Shown one piece after another: positions 4,124-52,122 of a stretch of DNA of 64,000 nt. The first letter of the stretch is position 1, and every line of letters starts with the position of its first letter. The stretch is from Gemmatimonadales bacterium (lineage in GTDB: Bacteria; Gemmatimonadota; Gemmatimonadetes; Gemmatimonadales; GWC2-71-9). Position numbers and translations under genes: made by a program. The notes below the pieces were generated by a model that worked only from the letters and a program-made list of their open reading frames with translations, made no database searches and had not been told where the DNA came from. The DNA lies in assembly GCA_038209515.1 (NCBI GenBank), contig JBBQXQ010000004.1:1078-65077 (forward strand). Reading direction: 5' to 3'.

Positions 4124-4660
4124 ATGGATCACCAGCACCATTCGACATTGCGCGAAGGACTCCTGACCGGCGTGATCGGCGGACTCATCGTAGCGGTCTG
4201 GTATGTGGCCTATGATCTCGGGCGTGGCCAGCTGGGCCATACCCCCAATGTCCTCGGCCAGGTCTTCGTGGCTCGGGATACGACGCCGGCGGTCCGGACG
4301 CTCATGCCGCAGGCGATCGCCGAGTACTCTTTGCTCCATTTCGGGGTGTTCCTGCTGCTCGGTATCCTCCTCGCGTGGCTGACCCATATGGCCATTCGTA
4401 ATCCGGCGCTGCGGATGGGAATGTGGCTCGGCTTGGTGATAGCCTTCTTACTCTTCATCGGCCTCCTGTTCATGCTGTACTCCGCCACTGACCAGCGATT
4501 CCCCTTGTGGTCGGCGCTCGTCGGCAGCGTACTTGGGATCGGTTCGATGGGCTGGTACCTCTGGCGGCGGCACCCCAGTCTGCGGCGAACCTTCCAGGAG
4601 GCACCTCTAGGCGATGAGGTCAAACCCCCACCTCACCCGCCGGGCGGCTCCCGAAGGTAG
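4124..4660 (+). CDS. hypothetical 4-TM membrane protein (paralog 1)
   Basis: 178 aa. Clearly homologous to the next ORF (GVIGGLIVAVWY../GIIGGVAVATWF.., ..WYLWRRHPSLRRTFQEAPLGD/..LYLWYKHPEFRRACRETPLGD). Confidence 0.7.
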   Translation: MDHQHHSTLREGLLTGVIGGLIVAVWYVAYDLGRGQLGHTPNVLGQVFVARDTTPAVRTLMPQAIAEYSLLHFGVFLLLGILLAWLTHMAIRNPALRMGMWLGLVIAFLLFIGLLFMLYSATDQRFPLWSALVGSVLGIGSMGWYLWRRHPSLRRTFQEAPLGDEVKPPPHPPGGSRR

Positions 4661-4705: not shown

Positions 4706-5206
4706 ATGCTGGATGACTCCCATTCGGTCATGGCGGAGGGGACCGACGTCGGCATTATCGGGGGCGTGGCTGTCGCTACCTGGTTTCTGATCCTCGATAC
4801 CATCGCCGGCCACCCCTTTCAAACTCCGAGCCTGCTGGGCCAGGTCGTGCTCTTCGGCGACTCGACTCCCGACACCAGTCACCTCGTGTTCGGGGCGATT
4901 CTGGTCTATACCGCTTTTCACTTCGCGGTGTTCGCGCTGCTCGGGATGGGCCTGGTCATCCTGGTGCATTGGGGCGAGCGGGATTCAGTGGTCCGATACG
5001 CCCTCCTTCCGGTCTTTCTGGTCTTCGAAGTGATGTTTTACGGCTTGCTCGAGGTCTTCTCCGAGCGAACCAACGAGCTGTTCCCCTTCTGGGCCGTCGT
5101 CACAGCCAACACCCTCGCCGCGGTCTCGATGGGTCTGTATCTCTGGTACAAGCACCCGGAGTTCCGTCGCGCCTGCCGGGAGACCCCGCTCGGGGACGCT
5201 CCATGA
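4706..5206 (+). CDS. hypothetical 4-TM membrane protein (paralog 2)
   Basis: 166 aa. Tandem paralog of 4124-4660. Confidence 0.7.
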   Translation: MLDDSHSVMAEGTDVGIIGGVAVATWFLILDTIAGHPFQTPSLLGQVVLFGDSTPDTSHLVFGAILVYTAFHFAVFALLGMGLVILVHWGERDSVVRYALLPVFLVFEVMFYGLLEVFSERTNELFPFWAVVTANTLAAVSMGLYLWYKHPEFRRACRETPLGDAP

Positions 5207-9045: not shown

Positions 9046-10121
9046 CCTTTCTTCGCCTGGAAGGTCTGACGAAGCGTTTCGACGGCACCACCGCCGTGGA
9101 CCACCTCTCGCTGTCGCTGGAACGGGGAGAGATGCTCGCACTGCTCGGCCCCAGCGGGAGCGGGAAGACCACCACGCTACGGCTGCTGGCCGGATTCGAG
9201 ACGCCGGATGCCGGACGCGTGTGGGTGGAGGACGAGGACGTGACGACGGTCGAGCCGGTGGCGCGGCGCTTCGGCATGGTGTTCCAGCACTACGCCCTCT
9301 TTCCGCACCTCGACGTCGGCGCAAACGTGGCATTCGGGCTGGAGTCGCTCCGCGTTCGCGGGGAAGAGCTCGATCAGCGGGTGGCGCGCGCACTCGCTCT
9401 GGTGGATCTCGCCGGCTTCGAGCGCCGGCGCATAGCCCAGCTCTCCGGAGGCCAGCAGCAACGGGTCGCGCTGGCTCGGGCCCTCGCACCTGAGCCGCGA
9501 GTGCTGCTGCTGGACGAGCCGCTCTCCAATCTGGATCCGTCGCTTCGGGAGCGAACCCGGGGTGAGATCAGGGAGCTGATCCGCCGGGTAGGAATCACAA
9601 CTGTGCTCGTCACCCATGAGCAGGACGAGGCGTTCGATCTCGGCGATCGCGTTGCGGTGCTGCGCGGAGGCCGGCTGGAGCAGGTCGGCTCGCCGGAGGA
9701 TCTCTACGCCGCCCCGGCCAACCCATTTGTCGCGGAGTTCGTGGGCCGATCGAGCCGCATCGCCGTGACGGTGCTCGGGCCAACGGAGCGTGGGGTGCGA
9801 GTCTCACTGGAAGGCGTGGAGTGGGAGCTCACCGATGGCGCTGCACCGCCGGGAGCGGTTCCACCGCAGGGGGAAGCCTTGATGGTCGTGCGCCCCGAAG
9901 CACTCCGATTGATGGCACCCGCTCCGGGCGCAGTCCCCGGGACGGTAGCCGAGCGGCGATTCACCGGCGCGGCGAGTCTGTTCACCGTCGCGACCGATGG
10001 CGGTGCCAGACTCGAGGTCACCGGGCCGCCCCGGTCGGTCCGCCCCGGTGATCGGGTGGGGATCATGCCGAGCCGCCGGTCGGGTGGCGGTATCCACCTC
10101 TTTCCTTCGGGCGATCGGTGA
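9042..10121 (+). CDS. ABC transporter ATP-binding protein (FbpC/PotA-like)
   Basis: Walker A GPSGSGKTT, signature LSGGQQQRVALARAL, Walker B LLLDEPLS. GTGA overlap with the SBP stop. Confidence 0.92.
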   Translation: MTFLRLEGLTKRFDGTTAVDHLSLSLERGEMLALLGPSGSGKTTTLRLLAGFETPDAGRVWVEDEDVTTVEPVARRFGMVFQHYALFPHLDVGANVAFGLESLRVRGEELDQRVARALALVDLAGFERRRIAQLSGGQQQRVALARALAPEPRVLLLDEPLSNLDPSLRERTRGEIRELIRRVGITTVLVTHEQDEAFDLGDRVAVLRGGRLEQVGSPEDLYAAPANPFVAEFVGRSSRIAVTVLGPTERGVRVSLEGVEWELTDGAAPPGAVPPQGEALMVVRPEALRLMAPAPGAVPGTVAERRFTGAASLFTVATDGGARLEVTGPPRSVRPGDRVGIMPSRRSGGGIHLFPSGDR

Positions 10122-11776
10122 TCGGCGGCAGACGCGCGGCTCTCCTCGAAGTGGGGCTGCTGGTGCTCCTGGTGTGGCTGATCGTGTACCCGCTCGTGCT
10201 CGTCCTGGTGGAGGGTTTTCGCGGCGCGAATGGATGGACCGCCGACTTTGTGCGGCAATTCCTGGAGAGGCGGAACGAGGCGCAGGCGCTCTGGGGCAGT
10301 CTCTGGATCTCTCTCGCGACGGTGATGCTGGCCGGGGCAATTGGGATCCCGCTCGCGTTCCTCTTCTCCCGCTACGACTTTCCGGGCCGCCGTATCGTGG
10401 GTGGCCTGGTTGCACTGCCCGCGGTGCTTCCGCCGCTCGTTGGCGTGCTCGCCTTTCTGTTTCTCTATGGCGAGAGCGGATTCGCCTCCCTCCTGATACA
10501 GCGGCTCTTTCGGCTGGATACACCGCCGTGGCGGCTGCAGGGTCCCGGGGCCATTCTGCTGGTGCACGCCTACTCGATGTACGTGTACTTCTATCTGTTC
10601 ACCCGCGCAGGACTTGCCGGCCTGGATGCCTCGGTGTTCGAGGCTGCCGCCAGCCTGGGGGCGGGACGCTGGCGTACGCTGCGGCGAGTCGTGCTGCCGC
10701 TGCTGATGCCTGGGCTGACGGGTGGTGCCCTTCTCACCTTCATGACCGCGCTCGCGTCCTTCAGCGCGCCCTACATCTTCGGCGGCGGATTCCGGGTCAT
10801 GACCACCCAGATCGTCGCCACCCGGCTGAATGGTGATGACCAGCTCGCGATGATCGAGACCGTCTCGCTCACCCTGATCGCCCTCGGGGCGCTTTGGCTG
10901 TTACGGGGGACCGCCGCATTCGAGAGCTCGGCAGGTGGACGCAAGGGCGTTGCTCCCGCCCTGGTGCCGGTCAAGCGGCCGGCGGTGCGTCTCATCGTGG
11001 GGGTACTCGGCTGGGGACTGGCTCTGCTCCTCCTGCTGCCACACCTCACCCTGCTGCTGGTCTCCTTCGTGCCGGCAGGCACCTGGACCACCGAGCCGCT
11101 GCCGCCCGCGTATACCTGGCGCAACTACCTGACGCTGATCGAGGATCCGGTGCGGGCCAGGCCGCTGCTCAACAGTCTGTGGCTCGCGAGCGCGGCGACC
11201 GTGGCCGCGGTCAGTATCGCCGTGGCAGCGGGAGTTCTCTCCGTGCGCCGGCGGGCGAGATTCGGACGGACGATTGAAGGTCTGCTCGCGCTGCCGTGGG
11301 CGGTCCCCGGCACCGTCTTCGCCATCGCGCTGGCCACTGCGTTTAGCGTGCACGCGCCCCTGGCCGGCCGATTCATCCTGGTGGGCACCCTTTGGCTCCT
11401 TCCGCTCGCCTACCTCGTAAGGAATCTGCCGATCACCAGCCGCAGCGTTCTCGCCGGCTTCCGCGCGCTCGACCTCTCGCTGGATGAGGCAGCCGCGACG
11501 CTGGGCGCCGGGCGCTGGCGGACGCTCCGCCGGGTGACCCTCCCGCTGCTCCGCCCGGCCATCGTGGCTGGAGCAAGCCTGGCCTTCGTGACCGCCTTTG
11601 GGGACTTCGTGACCTCGATCATGCTTTACACCTACGACACCCGGCCGATCTCGCTCGAGATTCTGTCCAGTCTCCGGCAGTCCGACGTCGGCGTGGCCGC
11701 GGCCTATGGCGTGGTCCTGATGGCGATCAGCGCCGCAGTATTCGCGCTCGGGGCCGACCGGGGCGGGATCGGATGA
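10118..11776 (+). CDS. ABC transporter permease, duplicated (two-domain, FbpB-like)
   Basis: 552 aa. Two EAA-like loops (ASLGAGRWRTLRRVVLPLL and ATLGAGRWRTLRRVTLPLL). GTGA overlap upstream. Confidence 0.9.
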   Translation: MIGGRRAALLEVGLLVLLVWLIVYPLVLVLVEGFRGANGWTADFVRQFLERRNEAQALWGSLWISLATVMLAGAIGIPLAFLFSRYDFPGRRIVGGLVALPAVLPPLVGVLAFLFLYGESGFASLLIQRLFRLDTPPWRLQGPGAILLVHAYSMYVYFYLFTRAGLAGLDASVFEAAASLGAGRWRTLRRVVLPLLMPGLTGGALLTFMTALASFSAPYIFGGGFRVMTTQIVATRLNGDDQLAMIETVSLTLIALGALWLLRGTAAFESSAGGRKGVAPALVPVKRPAVRLIVGVLGWGLALLLLLPHLTLLLVSFVPAGTWTTEPLPPAYTWRNYLTLIEDPVRARPLLNSLWLASAATVAAVSIAVAAGVLSVRRRARFGRTIEGLLALPWAVPGTVFAIALATAFSVHAPLAGRFILVGTLWLLPLAYLVRNLPITSRSVLAGFRALDLSLDEAAATLGAGRWRTLRRVTLPLLRPAIVAGASLAFVTAFGDFVTSIMLYTYDTRPISLEILSSLRQSDVGVAAAYGVVLMAISAAVFALGADRGGIG

Positions 11777-36947: not shown

Positions 36948-38525
36948 ATGAAGGCACCCTTGCTCATTCGACACTTCGCCGGCCTGCTGGTGCTCATTGC
37001 AGCCAATCCCGCTGCCGCCCAGTCCAGCGTCGATACTGCGGGTGCCGGGGCCCTGATCGATCAGGCCATGAATCACTCCGAGGTGATGCAGAATCTCCAG
37101 CACCTGAGCGATGTCATCGGGCCTCGTCTCTCCGGCTCACCGGCGATGCGACGCGCCAACGAGTGGACCGCGGAGCGGTTCAGATCCTACGGCCTTACGG
37201 CCGCCCTGGAGCCGTACACCTTCGGCGTCACCTGGGAGCGAGGGTCCACCACCGTCCGGCTCCTGGCCCCCTTTTCCCGCGAGATCACCGCCCACAGCTG
37301 GGCCTGGACCGACGGCACGGGAGGCAAGACCCTGAGCGGTCCCGTCGTCCTCACCGATCTCTCGACTCCGGAGAGCCTGGCGGTCTACCATACCAAGGTG
37401 AAAGGCGCCTGGGTGCTTCCCAGGGCTCCGTTCCCCACCTGGAATCCCGATGGTCCGCCGATGACCGCGGCCGACTCCGCCGACGTCCAGGCACAGATCA
37501 AGTTCCGGGGGAGCCCGTTCGCCGACACCTCTGCCGCGGCGGTGGCGGCTCGTCGCCAGTACCAGATCGATCTGTCCTATATCCTCCAGGCCGCCGGCGC
37601 GCTCGGCACCCTCATCGATGGCGCCAAGGACCATGGGCTCATGACGATGAGCGGCTCGCCGACTCGGGTGTCGCCGTTGCCCAGTGTGGTGATCTCGCAT
37701 GAGGACTACACCCTCCTTACCCGGCTTATCGGGGCGGGAGGGACACCCCGCCTCGTCGCCAGGATCGAAAACCGCATCGGCAAGACCCCGGTCCAGCAGT
37801 GGAACACGGTGGCCGAGCTCAAGGGGACCGAGCGGCCCGGCCAGGTCGTGATCCTCGGTGCCCACCTGGACAGTTGGGATCTCGGCACCGGTACCACCGA
37901 CAATGGCACCGGCTCGATGGTGGTGCTCGAGGCGGCCCGGGCCCTGGCGCAGTCCGGGCTCAAGCCGAAGCGCTCGATCCGCTTCATTCTGTTCAGTGGG
38001 GAGGAGCAGGGGTTGCTCGGCTCACGCGCCTACGCCGAGGCTCATGCCGGTAGCGCCGACAGCATCCAGGCCGTGCTGGTGCTGGACAATGGCACCGGGG
38101 CCATCACGGGCCAGGCACTACAGGGGCGGAAGGATTTGGAGGGTCTCTGGGAGCAGCTCCTGGAGCCGGTGGCGTCGCTCGGCGCCGACAGCGTGCGGGA
38201 CGCCAACAAGAGCGGCACCGACCATCTCTCGTTCCTACCCTATGGCGTGCCTGGGTTCAACTTCGATCAGATCTCCAGGGGATACAATCACACCCATCAC
38301 TCGCAGACCGATACGTACGACAAGGCTGTTGCGGGCGATCTTAAGCAGGCGGCGGCGGTCATGGCGGTCACGGCATATGAGCTGGCGAACCTGCCCGAGC
38401 TGTTGCCGCGTGGGACGAAGAGTCCGGTGATGCCGGTGCCGACGAAGCCGTCGCCCGGATTGGCGGTACGGCGGTACGGCGGTACGGCGGCGAGGCGGTA
38501 CGGCGGTGAGGCGGTACGGCGGTAG
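36948..38525 (+). CDS. M28 family metallopeptidase, exported
   Basis: ATG 36948 with a signal peptide. Motifs VILGAHLDSWDLGTGTTDNGTG, FSGEEQGLLGS, DHLSF. The last 21 codons and the stop are encoded by an 8-mer array. Confidence 0.85.
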   Translation: MKAPLLIRHFAGLLVLIAANPAAAQSSVDTAGAGALIDQAMNHSEVMQNLQHLSDVIGPRLSGSPAMRRANEWTAERFRSYGLTAALEPYTFGVTWERGSTTVRLLAPFSREITAHSWAWTDGTGGKTLSGPVVLTDLSTPESLAVYHTKVKGAWVLPRAPFPTWNPDGPPMTAADSADVQAQIKFRGSPFADTSAAAVAARRQYQIDLSYILQAAGALGTLIDGAKDHGLMTMSGSPTRVSPLPSVVISHEDYTLLTRLIGAGGTPRLVARIENRIGKTPVQQWNTVAELKGTERPGQVVILGAHLDSWDLGTGTTDNGTGSMVVLEAARALAQSGLKPKRSIRFILFSGEEQGLLGSRAYAEAHAGSADSIQAVLVLDNGTGAITGQALQGRKDLEGLWEQLLEPVASLGADSVRDANKSGTDHLSFLPYGVPGFNFDQISRGYNHTHHSQTDTYDKAVAGDLKQAAAVMAVTAYELANLPELLPRGTKSPVMPVPTKPSPGLAVRRYGGTAARRYGGEAVRR

Positions 38526-44460: not shown

Positions 44461-46320
44461 TTATCGCTCCTTTACCATCCCCGTCTCCAGCCAGGAATGC
44501 TCTCCCTTCAGCACCTGCTGAGCCACCGCGTAGGTCCGCACGTCGTCGTTGTCGAACACCGCCTCGAAGCGTTCCGCGACCCGGCGGCGCGCCTGCCAGC
44601 TGAAGAGGCCGGCCAGCTCGACCGGGCCCCGATTGGTCGGATCCTTCTTGTACATGGAGTACGCCTTGGAGCACGCCGCGGTGATGGCCAGGAGCTCGGC
44701 GCCGATCTCGACCAGTCTTCCCAGCACCGCCTGGCGCTTCTCCAGCTTCGGCCCAAACCGGACCATGCAGTGGAAGAGCGTGCGGGCCAGACGGCGGCAT
44801 GAACGCGATACGAAGCGGACATGGGTGGCCAGCGGACCGAATTCGCTGTACCGCGGTATGCGTCCCCAACCCAGCCAGAGCTTGGGATACCAGTAGGCGT
44901 AGTAGGCGCCCGAGCGGAGCAAGGCCTGGATCTTCTTCGCCATCGGCGCCTTCGGGTCGATCAGGTCGCCAGCGAGCTTGAGATGGGTATCCACCGCTTC
45001 GCGGGCGATGAACAGCCGCATGATCTCGCTGGACCCCTCGAAGATCAGGTTGATGCGATAGTCCCGCATCATGCGCTCGATCGGGTCGGGGCGCTCGCCC
45101 CGGCTCCTCAGGCTGTCCGCGGTCTCGTAGCCGCGGCCGCCCTTGATCTGGAGCGTGTCATCCACGATCCGCCAACCGGTCTCGGTGTTCCACATCTTGG
45201 CCATGGCGGCCTCGAGCCGGATGTCTGCGTCGCCCCGGTCGGCCATGAGGGAGGCGAGGTCGGACACGGCCTCCATGGCGAAGATCTCTGCCGCCATCCG
45301 GCCGATCTTCTGGGCGATGGCGTCGTGCTTCCCGATCGGTTGACCCCATTGCACCCGCTTCGCGGCCCAAATCCGCACGATCTCCAGGCACCGCTTGGCG
45401 CCGGCGACGGCCGAGGCGGGCAGCGTGAGCCGACCGGTGTTGAGGGTGATCAGCGCCAGCTTGAGCCCTTTCCCCTCGCCCCAGAGCACGTTCTCGACCG
45501 GGACCTTCACGTTGGTGAAGCGGATGATCCCGTTCTCCAGCGCCTTCAGTCCCATGAAGTGGAGCCGCTGCACCACCTCCACGCCGGGCCAGTTCGTCTC
45601 TACGATGAAGGCCGTGATCTTCTTCGGGCCGGTCCGCGCCATCACGACCATTAGCTCCGCGATGGTGCCGTTGGTGCACCAGAGCTTCTCGCCGTTGAGA
45701 ACGTAGCTCTTACTGTCTGCCGAGAGCGTGGCGGTGGTGCTGAGCGCCGCCGGGTCGGAGCCCACCTGGTTTTCGGTGAGCGCGAAGGCAGACACCGCGC
45801 CTGCGGCCAGGCGGGGCAAGTACTTCTTCTTCTGCGAAGGAGTGCCGAACAGCTTGAGCGGCGTGGGGACGCCAATGGACTGCGCCGCGGAGAGCAGGGC
45901 AGTGAGGTTGCCGTCCTGGCTGGTTACCAAACCGACAGCGTGGGTGTAGCTGTACTGGCTCAGCCCGAGTCCGCCGTATTCGACCGGGATCTTGATGCCG
46001 AACGCGCCGATCTCACCCAGTCCCCTGACGATATCGGTGGGAATCTTCCCGTCGCGATCGATCTTGTCGCTGTCCACCCGCTCCTGCATGAAGCGCTCGA
46101 GCTTCTCCATGAACGGCTTGGCCCGCGCGAGATCGGCCGGGTCCGGCTCGGGGAACGGATGCACCAGGTCGAGCCGGAACGAGCCCTCGAACAGCTCCCG
46201 CACGAAGCTGGGCGACTCCCACTCCTTCTCCCGCGCGGCCTCGGCGACATCGCGCGCCTCCTGCTCGGTGGCGAGCGGAGTAGGGGTCAATCGGTCGGGA
46301 CCGGCGAGAACGTCAGTCAT
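44461..46320 (-). CDS. acyl-CoA dehydrogenase family protein (long, FadE-like with C-terminal extension)
   Basis: 619 aa. ACAD N/M/C-domain pattern (ALTENQVGSDPAAL, GEKLWCTNG, QIKGGRGYE). Confidence 0.88.
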   Translation of the reverse strand: MTDVLAGPDRLTPTPLATEQEARDVAEAAREKEWESPSFVRELFEGSFRLDLVHPFPEPDPADLARAKPFMEKLERFMQERVDSDKIDRDGKIPTDIVRGLGEIGAFGIKIPVEYGGLGLSQYSYTHAVGLVTSQDGNLTALLSAAQSIGVPTPLKLFGTPSQKKKYLPRLAAGAVSAFALTENQVGSDPAALSTTATLSADSKSYVLNGEKLWCTNGTIAELMVVMARTGPKKITAFIVETNWPGVEVVQRLHFMGLKALENGIIRFTNVKVPVENVLWGEGKGLKLALITLNTGRLTLPASAVAGAKRCLEIVRIWAAKRVQWGQPIGKHDAIAQKIGRMAAEIFAMEAVSDLASLMADRGDADIRLEAAMAKMWNTETGWRIVDDTLQIKGGRGYETADSLRSRGERPDPIERMMRDYRINLIFEGSSEIMRLFIAREAVDTHLKLAGDLIDPKAPMAKKIQALLRSGAYYAYWYPKLWLGWGRIPRYSEFGPLATHVRFVSRSCRRLARTLFHCMVRFGPKLEKRQAVLGRLVEIGAELLAITAACSKAYSMYKKDPTNRGPVELAGLFSWQARRRVAERFEAVFDNDDVRTYAVAQQVLKGEHSWLETGMVKER

Positions 46321-47023
46321 GGCTCGAGTGCTCGGTTGAGGTTGTTGTCAAGTCGGAAAGCCTGTCCTGAGCGAAGCGAACGGGCCCGCGGATACCGTGC
46401 AACACCAGGTCGATGACGTGGCGCTTCCGCCGGTCGATCTCGTCCCGGTCTTCCAGGCGAACGCCCACCGCAGGCGCCACGGTGCGGGCGTGAATCATGG
46501 GGAACCAGCAGAGCGAGATGATGCTGAGCAGGAGCTGTGCCGCCTCACCCGACGGCGCATCGTCCAGGCCGAGCTCGGCGCTCATGGCAGCCAGCGCTTC
46601 CTGGCCGGCGGATAGATGGCTCAACCCATGGGGCAGCCTCGTGCCGCTCAGCGCTTCCCGCTCGATCAGCCGGACGAAGTTGGGTCGCGCGGCCAGGAAG
46701 TCGAAATAGTCGGAGACGGCACCGGCCAGAATGGCTTCAGCGCCTTCGTTGCTCGCGAGCGCCCTGGCCCGGCCTTCGCGCACCGCGTCACGGACCTCGG
46801 CAAAGGACCGATCCAGGACGGCTTGGTATAGCTCGGCCTTGGATCGGAAGAAGTAGCCCGGCGTCCCGCGAGAGACGCCCGCAGCAGCCCCAACCTGAGT
46901 CAGGCTAGTGGCATCATACCCCTCGTCGGCAAAGAGCTGCTCCGCGGCGTCCAGAATCGCCGCTCGGCTCCGGTCGGGGTTCCGCACTCGCTCGTGATTG
47001 GTGGCCAATGTGCTCTCGTGCAA
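46313..47023 (-). CDS. TetR/AcrR family transcriptional regulator
   Basis: HTH RSRAAILDAAEQLFADEGYDATSLTQVGAAAGVSRGTPGYFF. TTG start. 8-nt overlap (ATGACTGA) with the ACAD start. Confidence 0.88.
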   Translation of the reverse strand: MHESTLATNHERVRNPDRSRAAILDAAEQLFADEGYDATSLTQVGAAAGVSRGTPGYFFRSKAELYQAVLDRSFAEVRDAVREGRARALASNEGAEAILAGAVSDYFDFLAARPNFVRLIEREALSGTRLPHGLSHLSAGQEALAAMSAELGLDDAPSGEAAQLLLSIISLCWFPMIHARTVAPAVGVRLEDRDEIDRRKRHVIDLVLHGIRGPVRFAQDRLSDLTTTSTEHSSHD

Positions 47024-47037
47024 TGGGTTGCAGCTTG

Positions 47038-47053
47038 CTTGCTGATTAGCAAG
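47038..47053. promoter_or_regulatory. candidate TetR operator palindrome
   Basis: CTTGCT-GATT-AGCAAG lies 15 nt upstream of the tetR start codon. Confidence 0.35.
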
Positions 47054-47109
47054 TTACCGCGCTGGCAGGGAGCCGTCAAGCGGTCTGGCAACGATCTCGG
47101 CTGCCCATT

Positions 47110-47456
47110 GGCGTCGACGCCCGCCCTTCGGGCGGGCATGCATCATTCATTCATTTGCGCGTGGACGCGCACCCGGCCCTTACGGGCCGGGCTCTTCGTT
47201 TGGCGCGGTCCGTCCGGACCGCGGACGCTCCGTGCGCCCCAACGTCCCGATGTCCAAGGCCTAACTCAAGATTCGGATTTGCTCGCGTGGACAGCGGAGT
47301 CATGGATCAGACACATTTGACGTCGAGCCTTCTTCGCGCTGGGAGCATCCGCGGTCCGGCGGACCGCGCCATTCCGTAGCCCGGCCCGTAAGGGCCGGGT
47401 GCGCGTCGACGCGCAAAAGAGAATCACGGCCCGCCGCCAGGCGGGCGTTTTTGGCG
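47110..47456. repeat. ~350-bp compound palindrome: four GC hairpins (A-B-C-D), ~125-bp lower-GC core, then D'-C'-B'-A'
   Basis: A GCCCGCCcttcgGGCGGGC (47119); B GCGCGTggACGCGC (47157); C CCCGGCCCttacGGGCCGGG (47172); D CGCGGTCCGtcCGGACCGCG (47204). They are mirrored at 47350 (D'), 47379-47414 (C'B', 1 mismatch to the reverse complement of BC) and 47429 (A', followed by TTTTT). Confidence 0.9.
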
Positions 47457-47457
47457 T

Positions 47458-52122
<4,665 letters not shown>

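What the first reader, a model, noticed from the sequence alone, without database searches (positions are those of the whole stretch)
47110..47456. ~350-bp compound palindrome of four GC hairpins around a lower-GC core, downstream of gltB
Hairpins A-B-C-D (47119-47225) recur as D'-C'-B'-A' (47350-47448). B-C and C'-B' are reverse complements over 37 nt with one mismatch.

The ~125-bp core (47226-47348) has lower GC and no convincing ORF. A' is followed by TTTTT on the plus strand. That looks like a plus-strand intrinsic terminator, although both neighbouring genes are on the minus strand.

Possible explanations: a MITE with long structured terminal inverted repeats, a plus-strand structured sRNA antisense to the gltB 3' end and tetR 5' region, or a recombination or replication-related site.
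Basis: seen in the sequence. Interest (0 to 1): 0.6.

Follow-up and report, generated by a model that had tools for sequence, protein, structure and literature searches.

The report
REPIN-like palindromic repeat after gltB
The 350-base palindrome is one copy of a family of hairpin-rich "junk" repeats that has spread between genes in some soil Gemmatimonadales, probably copied by a tamed IS200-type transposase that keeps a copy of the repeat right behind its own gene.

Summary
Window 47117-47448 is a near-perfect palindrome (fold z about -14). It consists of two inverted copies of a ~110-nt four-hairpin unit (A-B-C-D) around a 104-nt spacer.

It is not unique. The genome has 12 units, a congener has at least 26, and only 8 of 37 species of the genus carry any. 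About 50 relatives have an "empty" gltB-tetR junction of 66-150 bp, against 434 bp here.

In 78 soil-metagenome loci found with hairpin D alone, 54 of 87 elements were tail-to-tail doublets like this one. None of 45 non-redundant doublets has a target-site duplication. The 8-nt repeat TTGGCGTC that flanks the window copy is an exception.

Twelve of the 78 loci are one site: the spacer behind a single-copy, syntenic IS200-like Y1 (HUH) transposase gene. There the doublet starts 5-58 nt after the stop codon.

Best reading: a REPIN/BIME-like non-autonomous element moved as single-stranded hairpins by that domesticated transposase. Here it sits harmlessly between the gltB stop codon and the intact tetR promoter.

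Hairpins C-D resemble Rfam Acido-Lenti-1 but score below its threshold. The MITE reading is partly right. The plus-strand sRNA/terminator reading is unsupported. No RNA data could be obtained.

The parts
47108..47115 (.). Left copy of the 8-nt direct repeat TTGGCGTC that flanks the element. It is a candidate target-site duplication but probably not a family feature.
   Evidence: This is the only element of 25 with a repeat of 8 nt or more, and none of a further 45 has one. Null P is about 0.005 per element.
47117..47234 (+). Unit 1 (A-B-C-D-tail). Hairpins: A 47119-47137, B 47156-47171, C 47172-47191, D 47203-47223. Tail GACGCTCCGTG 47224-47234. The C-D linker is of the CTCTT type.
   Evidence: Covariance model R1, 109.8 bits, E 2e-20. 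Coordinates. Structure and covariation.
47235..47338 (.). Spacer (core), 104 nt, 56.7% GC. It is partly self-complementary, with E motifs CGATGTCCAAGG 47248-47259 and TTTGACGTCG 47316-47325. It has no credible ORF.
   Evidence: (I2). It is unique in this genome but homologous to the spacers of doublets in G006, G008 and G016. An E-like motif occurs in 8 of 42 metagenome spacers.
47339..47448 (-). Unit 2 (inverted copy). Tail 47339-47349, D' 47350-47369, GTAG 47376-47379, C' 47380-47399, B' 47400-47415, A' 47429-47446. The C-D linker is of the CTAC/GTAG type.
   Evidence: R1, 94.9 bits. Rfam Acido-Lenti-1 scores 29.9 bits on 47352-47399(-), below the gathering score of 37. Coordinates.
47451..47458 (.). 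Right copy of TTGGCGTC. Its last base is the first base of the gltB stop codon as read on the plus strand (47458-47460).
47458..52122 (-). gltB (glutamate synthase large subunit, 1554 aa). The element begins 9 nt after its stop codon.
47038..47079 (-). Intact tetR promoter and operator, conserved in relatives. -35 TTGACG 47074-47079, -10 TAACTT 47051-47056, palindrome CTTGCTGATTAGCAAG 47038-47053. It lies 37 nt from the end of the element.
   Evidence: Aligned junctions of about 50 Gemmatimonadales; sequence.
46313..47023 (-). tetR-family regulator (236 aa), downstream neighbour.

Best explanation
The palindrome is a tail-to-tail doublet (A-B-C-D / spacer / D'-C'-B'-A') of a ~110-nt four-hairpin repeat unit. 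This is the canonical form of a lineage-specific, intergenic, non-autonomous repeat family of one Gemmatimonadales genus.

It works like a REPIN/BIME. During replication or repair the doublet folds into hairpins in single-stranded DNA. It is then cut and pasted or copied, without target duplication, by a single-copy, chromosomally fixed IS200-like Y1 (HUH) transposase. In this genome that gene is at contig C66, 150 aa, between a peptidase-M1 gene and atpH, and it keeps a doublet directly behind its own stop codon.

The copy in the window was inserted between the gltB stop codon and the tetR promoter in an ancestor shared with at least three congeners. It leaves both genes intact. As part of the gltB 3' end it may incidentally act as a very stable 3' hairpin (a barrier to read-through and to exonucleases).

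Shown: family membership, structure with covariation, empty sites, decay products, absence of target-site duplications, and enrichment next to the Y1 gene.

Inferred: that the Y1 protein is the mobilising enzyme, the single-stranded DNA mechanism, and any effect on gltB or tetR expression.
For: **Family.** There are 12 units in the genome. In the genus, 6 species carry several units and 2 carry single weak hits, out of 37; none of 24 genomes of other families of the order has any.

**Structure.** In 52 units, 98.8% of cells are paired. 15 of 27 pairs show compensatory changes, and 0 of 500 shuffles reach this. Only 12 G-U-type cells occur against 56 double changes. Hairpin D is sequence-invariant.

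**Empty sites and decay.**
- The gltB-tetR spacer is 66-150 bp in most of about 50 relatives, against 434 bp here.
- A G006 doublet corresponds to a clean empty site at G000:C78 10656|10657.
- Other orthologous sites keep only hairpin A, only D'-C', or a 21-nt internal remnant.

**Canonical form.** An exact 23-mer of hairpin D retrieved 78 metagenome loci at about 45 sites, holding 142 units: 54 tail-to-tail doublets, 1 head-to-head doublet, 32 singles.

**No target-site duplication.**

**Link to the Y1 gene.**
- The gene carries PF01797 at 90.7 bits and NF033573 at 75.6 bits.
- It is present once per genome in 15 of 38 genus genomes.
- Synteny is always peptidase M1 | Y1 | atpH.
- Units lie in the Y1-atpH spacer in G000, G016, G023, L145, L148 and L149.
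- 10 of the 78 blindly retrieved loci carry the Y1 gene (62-87% identity), and 2 more carry the atpH side of the same site. In 9 of the 10, a doublet starts 5-58 nt after the stop codon. About 0.05 loci would be expected by chance.
- Five of the six unit-rich genomes have the gene. The sixth lacks the whole atpH region in its assembly.
Against: - The Y1 protein is IS200-type, not a canonical RAYT. NCBIfam calls it an IS200/IS605 transposase. A profile search of the PDB finds IS608, ISDra2 and Sulfolobus TnpA but not E. coli TnpA-REP. It lacks the NPxxxGLV motif of published RAYT/TIRYT proteins.
- Units flank the gene on the 3' side only, and there are no inverted repeats around it.
- Ten genus genomes have the gene but no detectable units. 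The GGCCACCC-stem variant next to the gene in G011 and G033 is not amplified.
- The over-representation of the Y1-atpH site could partly reflect one old, conserved insertion sampled in many species rather than ongoing activity.
- Copy number is low: 12 here against hundreds for classical REPs.
- GTAG occurs at the foot of hairpin C in only about 11 of 52 units.
- This particular copy does have an 8-nt flanking direct repeat.
- There are no transcript or biochemical data.
Confidence: 0.62

Rival explanations
1. It is a classical MITE. The two 110-nt units are terminal inverted repeats recognised by a DDE transposase, which inserts the element and creates an 8-bp target-site duplication (TTGGCGTC).
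For: There is an exact 8-nt direct repeat at both ends of the window copy. The closest empty junction (L024) carries one similar copy, GACCGCCTTGG, right after the gltB stop. The architecture is a long inverted repeat.
Against: No other element has such a repeat. That covers 24 further elements from genomes and 45 non-redundant metagenome doublets, whose distribution equals the null and whose maximum is 6 nt. The filled/empty pair G006 vs G000:C78 is clean and has no duplication. BLAST of the element against the genome finds no longer element with the same ends. Single units and head-to-head pairs also exist.
Confidence: 0.06
2. It functions mainly as RNA. It could be a structured 3'-UTR element or terminator/stabiliser of gltB, or an sRNA of the Acido-Lenti-1 kind. 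On this reading the family is maintained by selection on the transcripts, not by transposition.
For: Covariation supports the four helices. Rfam Acido-Lenti-1 (typed as sRNA) matches hairpins C-D at 23-36.5 bits in every unit-bearing genome. The element starts 9 nt after the gltB stop, and the gltB-strand RNA folds at -250 kcal/mol. There is a terminator-like hairpin plus T-run on the plus strand.
Against: All hits are below Rfam's gathering score. The dominant form is a symmetric doublet that reads alike on both strands. Pairs change almost only by double substitution, with few G-U cells (12 of 1345), as expected if both strands or DNA must pair. The T-run is not conserved in other copies. 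No promoter-like site was found. Copies are gained, lost and truncated between close species. This reading is not exclusive of the best explanation, because REPs also act in RNA.
Confidence: 0.15
3. It is a locally generated palindrome, formed by template switching or quasipalindrome correction at this junction. This would resemble the repeat-armed hairpins seen at other gene ends of Gemmatimonadales, and it would not be a mobile element.
For: Earlier notes on this genome describe fast-evolving hairpins at gene boundaries. The two arms here are 95% complementary. The spacer has been inverted between species.
Against: The same 110-nt unit sequence occurs at 8 unrelated sites in this genome and at about 45 sites in metagenomes. 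Local processes cannot produce that.
Confidence: 0.03

Closest known systems
REPIN-RAYT systems (REP doublets with REP-associated tyrosine transposases; Bertels & Rainey 2011, PMC3116915, PMC3337134) and REPtrons/TIRtrons (Di Nocera et al. 2013, PMC3733652)
   Same: - Inverted doublets of palindromic units separated by a spacer.
- Extragenic location.
- Lineage-specific and patchy distribution.
- No target duplication.
- A single-copy, vertically inherited Y1/HUH transposase gene with the repeat next to it.
- Decay into singlets.
   Different: - The unit is 110 nt with four hairpins, against 20-40 nt with one.
- The doublet is about 270-340 nt, against about 100.
- There are about 12-26 units per genome, against hundreds.
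- GTAG is present in only about a fifth of units.
- The protein is IS200-type and lacks the RAYT/TIRYT NPxxxGLV motif.
- The repeat is on the 3' side of the gene only.
- The phylum is Gemmatimonadota. No paper in the searched library joins that name with REPs.
'IS200 Group 3' of Bertels et al. 2017 (bioRxiv 10.1101/119735): IS200-like genes that behave like RAYTs
   Same: By sequence it is an IS200-like TnpA. It has no duplicates within a genome, it is not on plasmids, and it is associated with repeated flanking sequence (for the published description; here).
   Different: Membership in that group could not be tested because no reference sequences were at hand. The published description gives no four-hairpin unit or doublet structure.
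BIMEs of Escherichia coli (mosaics of inverted REP/PU units of Y and Z types with conserved linkers; my own knowledge of Gilson, Bachellier and co-workers)
   Same: The elements are a mosaic of modules. The two arms of a doublet are usually different unit variants: CTCTT-type against CTAC-type C-D linker in the window, C139, L093, L098 and L109. There are recurring spacer types. Head-to-head as well as tail-to-tail junctions occur.
   Different: The sequences are unrelated and the units are much larger. Binding of IHF, gyrase or Pol I is unknown here.
Rfam RF01687 Acido-Lenti-1 RNA motif (Weinberg et al. 2010, PMC2864571). [quoted passage not shown]
   Same: There are two hairpins. The first has an 8-bp stem with a CUNACG-like loop and is followed by GCUA. 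The second is preceded by AUGG-CG. The motif is multi-copy and often clustered.
   Different: Scores are 23-36.5 bits, below the gathering score of 37. The second hairpin is longer here (8-9 bp against 5). Here it is only half of a four-hairpin unit. The phylum is different.
PATEs/MITEs derived from IS200/IS605 elements (my own knowledge)
   Same: They are non-autonomous, hairpin-bearing and free of target duplications, and they depend on a Y1 TnpA.
   Different: No parent IS with matching left and right ends exists here. The transposase gene is fixed at one syntenic site.

Membership tests
REP/REPIN-RAYT system | Repeats occur as inverted doublets (REPINs) in extragenic space | tested here: met
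   54 tail-to-tail doublets among 87 elements in 78 metagenome loci. All 8 sites in this genome are intergenic.
REP/REPIN-RAYT system | Unit is a single 20-40-nt imperfect palindrome present in tens to hundreds of copies | tested here: not met
   The unit is about 110 nt with four helices. There are 12 copies here, none hidden at contig ends, and at least 26 in G006.
REP/REPIN-RAYT system | Conserved GTAG at the 5' foot of the hairpin | tested here: inconclusive
   GTAG (CTAC on the unit strand) sits next to hairpin C in about 11 of 52 units, including the window's right arm at 47376-47379. Most units have AGAG. Only the CT next to the stem is invariant.
REP/REPIN-RAYT system | Single-copy, vertically inherited Y1 transposase gene flanked by the repeat | tested here: met
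   There is one family-1 gene per genome, at a syntenic site. A doublet sits 5-58 nt after its stop in 9 of 10 blindly retrieved loci. The repeat is on the 3' side only.
REP/REPIN-RAYT system | Protein belongs to the RAYT clade (RAYT-specific motifs; relatives of E. coli TnpA-REP) | tested here: not met
   NCBIfam gives IS200 equivalog NF033573. A PDB profile search finds only IS200/IS605 TnpAs at E<=1. The NPxxxGLV motif of published RAYT/TIRYT alignments is absent.
REP/REPIN-RAYT system | Insertion without target-site duplication | tested here: met
REP/REPIN-RAYT system | The transposase binds and cleaves the repeat as single-stranded DNA | not testable with these tools
   This needs biochemistry.
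MITE (DDE-transposase dependent) | Target-site duplication of fixed length at every copy | tested here: not met
   Only the window copy has an 8-nt repeat. The distribution in 45+24 other elements equals the null.
MITE (DDE-transposase dependent) | Autonomous partner element with the same terminal inverted repeats | tested here: not met
   BLAST of the element against the whole assembly finds only the short units. There is no match in plasmids or phages. The assembly is 95% complete, so absence is not proof.
Rfam RF01687 Acido-Lenti-1 | Score at or above the gathering threshold (37 bits) | tested here: not met
   29.9 and 22.8 bits in the window. The best in the genus is 36.5 bits, and 0 of 38 genomes exceed the cut-off.
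Rfam RF01687 Acido-Lenti-1 | Two-hairpin architecture with conserved loop and GCUA linker | tested here: met
   Alignment to the model and comparison with the seed alignment.
BIME-type mosaic element | Alternating orientation of two unit variants with recurring linker motifs | tested here: met
   CTCTT-type and CTAC-type arms are paired in the window, C139, L093, L098 and L109. The spacer motif recurs.
Intrinsic (Rho-independent) terminator | GC hairpin followed directly by a U/T tract, conserved among copies | tested here: not met
   Present on the plus strand of this copy. The flank after hairpin A' differs in all other copies.

The most novel reading that the evidence does not exclude
The Rfam 'sRNA' family Acido-Lenti-1, abundant and of unknown function, may not be an RNA gene. 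It may instead be the conserved two-hairpin core of REP/REPIN-type DNA elements that are serviced by independently domesticated IS200-like Y1 transposases. On this reading the Gemmatimonadales system shows the complete arrangement: a four-hairpin unit, a doublet as the replicating form, and a fixed transposase gene with its own doublet. REPIN-RAYT-like partnerships would then have arisen more than once and outside Proteobacteria.
Probability: 0.3. Interest if true: 0.65.

Novelty: new variant of a known kind. Interest (0 to 1): 0.5.

Why it matters
REPIN-RAYT partnerships are the best example of mobile DNA that persists by vertical inheritance inside bacterial lineages. They are described almost only from Proteobacteria and with RAYT-clade enzymes.

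This report describes a comparable partnership in the abundant but barely cultured soil phylum Gemmatimonadota. It is built from a much larger, four-hairpin unit and is apparently served by an IS200-type enzyme fixed at one chromosomal site. That would point to a second, independent domestication.

It also gives a testable explanation for a long-unexplained Rfam motif type.

In practice, these 270-340-bp perfect hairpins break assemblies. They can also be mistaken for sRNAs, terminators or regulatory switches in MAG annotation.

Tried and rejected
- **Rfam.** Only sub-threshold hits were found.
- **Target-site duplication.** It looked promising for the window copy but was rejected as a family trait.
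- **Inverted repeats around the Y1 gene.** None were found.
- **A co-diverged repeat family.** I tested whether Y1-bearing genomes without units carry their own. The GGCCACCC-stem hairpin next to the gene is not amplified, so there is no support.
- **The second Y1 gene (C140).** Its distribution (3 genomes) does not fit the units, and it has its own flanking 137-nt repeat. It was rejected as the mobiliser.
- **G008.** It looked like a unit-bearing genome without the Y1 gene, but the whole atpH region is missing from its assembly.
- **Nucleotide-level insertion boundaries at the gltB-tetR junction.** The nearest empty junction (L024, 82% TetR identity) is too diverged for certainty.
- **Empty-site search for five other sites of this genome.** It gave remnants and replaced sequence rather than clean boundaries.
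- **Plasmid and phage collections.** No match.
- **Literature.** No paper joins Gemmatimonadota with REPs. The TIR sequence of Koribacter ORF1552, which could tie Acido-Lenti-1 to a tyrosine transposase, is not in the held supplements.
- **Global MAFFT alignment of filled against empty sites.** It misaligned, so these were read by eye instead.

Full report
**Observation**

The stretch lies between the stop codon of gltB (47458-47460, minus strand; 1554 aa with GATase_2, Glu_syn_central, Glu_synthase and GXGXG domains) and the start of a TetR-family gene (47023, minus strand).

On the left arm, A is 47119-47137, B 47156-47171, C 47172-47191 and D 47203-47223. On the right arm, D' is 47350-47369, C' 47380-47399, B' 47400-47415 and A' 47429-47446. 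B-C and C'-B' differ by one base. The longest arm pair is 43 nt at 95% complementarity.

The spacer has 56.7% GC, against 70-75% in the arms and 65.5% in the window. The whole stretch folds far better than shuffled sequence, with z -14.3 as DNA and z -13.6 as RNA of the gltB strand.

**It is one copy of a repeat family**

BLAST against the 228-contig, 3.42-Mb, 65% GC assembly shows that the arms recur on seven other contigs, while the spacer does not. The repeated entity is a ~110-nt unit, A-B-C-D plus an 11-nt tail.

A covariance model (R1, 111 positions, 27 pairs) finds 12 strong units in the genome. No partial units are hidden at contig ends.

On 52 units from six species, 98.8% of cells pair. 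15 of 27 pairs carry compensatory double changes, which 0 of 500 shuffles reach, and slid controls collapse. G-U-type single changes are rare (12 cells against 56 double changes). Hairpin D is almost invariant in sequence. My inference is that the stems must pair on both strands or as DNA, and that D is a sequence-specific recognition site.

**Distribution and empty sites**

Record titles place the genome in Gemmatimonadales. Within its GTDB genus, 6 species carry several units (G006 at least 26) and 2 carry single weak hits, out of 37. None of 24 genomes from the other families of the order has any.

The gltB-tetR adjacency is conserved in about 50 Gemmatimonadales. Most have 66-150 bp between the two genes, for example 81 bp in L024. 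All keep the tetR promoter and operator (TTGACG-N17-TAACTT overlapping CTTGCT..AGCAAG). This window has 434 bp.

The same junction holds a doublet in G006 (L102), a single degenerate unit in G011 (L032) and a remnant in G023 (L013). The insertion is therefore old within a subclade.

The reverse also occurs. Doublets of G006 correspond in this genome to:
- a clean empty site (C78 10656|10657);
- a lone A-like hairpin (C39);
- a D'-C' remnant (C31);
- an A' remnant (C59).

A unit of this genome (C100) is reduced to 21 internal bases in G006 and is absent in G034. The family is gained, lost and eroded on a short time scale.

**What the canonical element looks like**

In this genome and G006 both tail-to-tail and head-to-head pairs occur.

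To avoid bias I scanned JGI metagenome contigs for the exact 23-mer of hairpin D. This gave 78 soil loci at about 45 distinct sites holding 142 units. They form 54 tail-to-tail doublets (spacers 23-406 nt, modes near 50 and 100), one head-to-head pair and 32 singles, 14 of them at contig ends. The window's element is thus the standard form.

The two arms are usually different variants, CTCTT-type against CTAC-type linker between C and D. This recalls the Y/Z alternation of E. coli BIMEs (my own knowledge). The spacer is variable. The window's type, with the motifs CGATGTCCAAGG / TTTGACGTCG, recurs in G006, G008, G016 and in 8 of 42 metagenome doublets.

**No target-site duplication**

The window copy is flanked by an exact 8-nt direct repeat, TTGGCGTC (47108-47115 and 47451-47458). 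The nearest empty junction has one similar copy after the stop codon.

It is the only case. 24 other elements from genomes and 45 non-redundant metagenome doublets show only what mismatched flank pairs show, with a maximum of 6 nt. The G006/G000:C78 pair is clean. A DDE-type MITE is therefore unlikely.

**The candidate enzyme**

A Pfam Y1_Tnp search of the genus found a 150-aa HUH/Y1 gene in 15 of 38 genomes, once each. A second, 31%-identical type occurs in three genomes.

In this genome it lies at C66, 190 bp from a unit. It scores as an IS200/IS605 transposase: PF01797 at 90.7 bits and NF033573 at 75.6 bits. Its PDB relatives are 2fyx, ISDra2, IS608 and Sulfolobus TnpA.

Wherever it was read, including four unrelated metagenome contigs fetched through the protein alone, it sits between a divergent peptidase-M1 gene and the convergent end of the ATP-synthase operon. 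It is a fixed chromosomal gene, not a hopping IS. The Y1-atpH spacer carries units or their remnants in G000, G016 (three), G023, L148 (a doublet), L149 and L145.

The blind metagenome set gives the strongest test. 10 of 78 loci carry this gene (62-87% identity to ours), and two more carry the atpH side of the same site. This is the largest cluster of loci. In 9 of the 10, a tail-to-tail doublet begins 5-58 nt after the stop codon and fills the spacer. With about 3000 intergenic regions per genome, about 0.05 loci are expected.

Part of this excess may be one old insertion kept in many species. Even so, retention of an exact 23-mer beside a protein that has diverged to 62% identity argues for a functional tie.

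Five of the six unit-rich genomes have the gene. The sixth lacks the whole region in its assembly.

**Limits of the analogy**

- The protein is not a canonical RAYT. There is no hit to E. coli TnpA-REP, and it lacks the NPxxxGLV motif of published RAYT/TIRYT alignments.
- It resembles what Bertels et al. [quoted passage not shown] Membership in that group could not be tested.
- The repeat flanks the gene on one side only.
- Ten genomes have the gene without detectable units.
- I found no separately amplified repeat in two of those genomes.
- Copy number is low.

**Relation to Acido-Lenti-1**

Rfam's Acido-Lenti-1 model aligns to hairpins C-D of every unit, and only in unit-bearing genomes, but at 23-36.5 bits against a threshold of 37. 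The seed alignment shares the 8-bp stem, the CUNACG-type loop, the GCUA that follows it and the AUGG-CG before the second hairpin.

Read on the other strand, this is a (G/A/T)TAG-tagged palindrome, the hallmark of GTAG-type REPs (Di Nocera 2013). This is a resemblance, not membership. It motivates the novel reading given above.

**Likely mechanism and local consequence**

I take the element to be a REPIN/BIME-like passenger, mobilised as single-stranded hairpins by the fixed IS200-like enzyme. The mobilisation step is inferred.

In the window it occupies the 434-bp gap without touching the gltB stop or the tetR promoter, which lies 37 nt away. On the gltB transcript it would form a 330-nt hairpin 9 nt after the stop codon. 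That could block read-through into tetR and 3' exonucleases. This role is known for REPs from my own knowledge and is untested here.

The plus-strand T-run is not a family feature.

The central spacer is inverted in G006 relative to this genome while the flanks are collinear. This is what recombination between the arms would produce.

**Verdict**

The MITE idea is right in spirit, in that this is non-autonomous mobile DNA. It is wrong in type, because there are no duplications and the layout is Y1-associated and REPIN-like. The element is a new variant of a known kind, of moderate interest. Its main value is the well-supported link to a domesticated IS200-type transposase in an under-studied phylum, together with the lead on Acido-Lenti-1.

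Noticed in passing
window 26012, 26056(-), 31282, 46369; L096 427-557, L101 481-611 and 699-829, L111 832-962, L112 383-510: A second, tiny repeat family consists of a short stem around the loop GAGCGnAGCGA (e.g. GCCTGCCCTGAGCGCAGCGAAGGGC), which contains the d(GCGNAGC) mini-hairpin core. The loop motif occurs 81 times in this genome. In G006 and G015, copies are inserted exactly into the loops of unit hairpins D and C. The window copy at 46369 lies inside the 3' end of the tetR ORF, where many orthologues' alignments stop (residue ~213).
   Followed up: partly
G000:C149 4763-4800, C70 11100-11143 and ~11500-11560, C33 ~4270-4300 and 5035-5060, C100 ~9555-9585; L113 1936-2030: Heptamer arrays (TACCGCC)n lie 35-100 nt beyond hairpin D of head-to-head pairs and single units. 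In G015 they take the place of the doublet behind the Y1 gene. This ties the unit family to the 7-9-nt micro-arrays noted earlier in this genome.
   Followed up: partly
G000:C140 2899-4099 (locus L126 900-2100): A second Y1 transposase gene (31% identical to the first; also in G017 and G034) is bracketed by two direct copies (95.6% identical) of a 137-nt palindromic repeat. This is a classical REPtron/TIRtron layout with an unrelated repeat. A further short repeat, GAGTCATTGCGAGGGC..., lies upstream and also occurs in the window near 38525.
   Followed up: partly
G000:C33 4071-5060 (locus L134 1072-2060): A Uma2-family endonuclease gene (PF05685, 214 aa, minus strand) is bracketed by two units in the same orientation. 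Each unit is followed by tccgacgaatcgc and a heptamer array. This looks like a small composite.
   Followed up: partly
window 47224-47349 versus L102 609-750: The spacer and unit tails of the gltB-tetR doublet are inverted in G006 relative to this genome, while the flanking genes are collinear. The break points fall in the identical D hairpins. The gltB-proximal unit also differs in variant between the two species.
   Followed up: partly
window 47038-47079: The tetR promoter and operator (TTGACG-N17-TAACTT overlapping the palindrome CTTGCTnnnnAGCAAG) are conserved at the gltB-tetR junction of about 50 Gemmatimonadales. This suggests autoregulation of this TetR, which precedes an acyl-CoA dehydrogenase gene (44461-46320).
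   Followed up: no
L174 1264-2643 (also L204): In soil metagenome contigs, two tail-to-tail doublets bracket a 228-aa membrane-protein gene that lies between a lipoprotein gene and an RNase Z-like gene. This was the second most sampled site of the family (9 of 78 loci).
   Followed up: no
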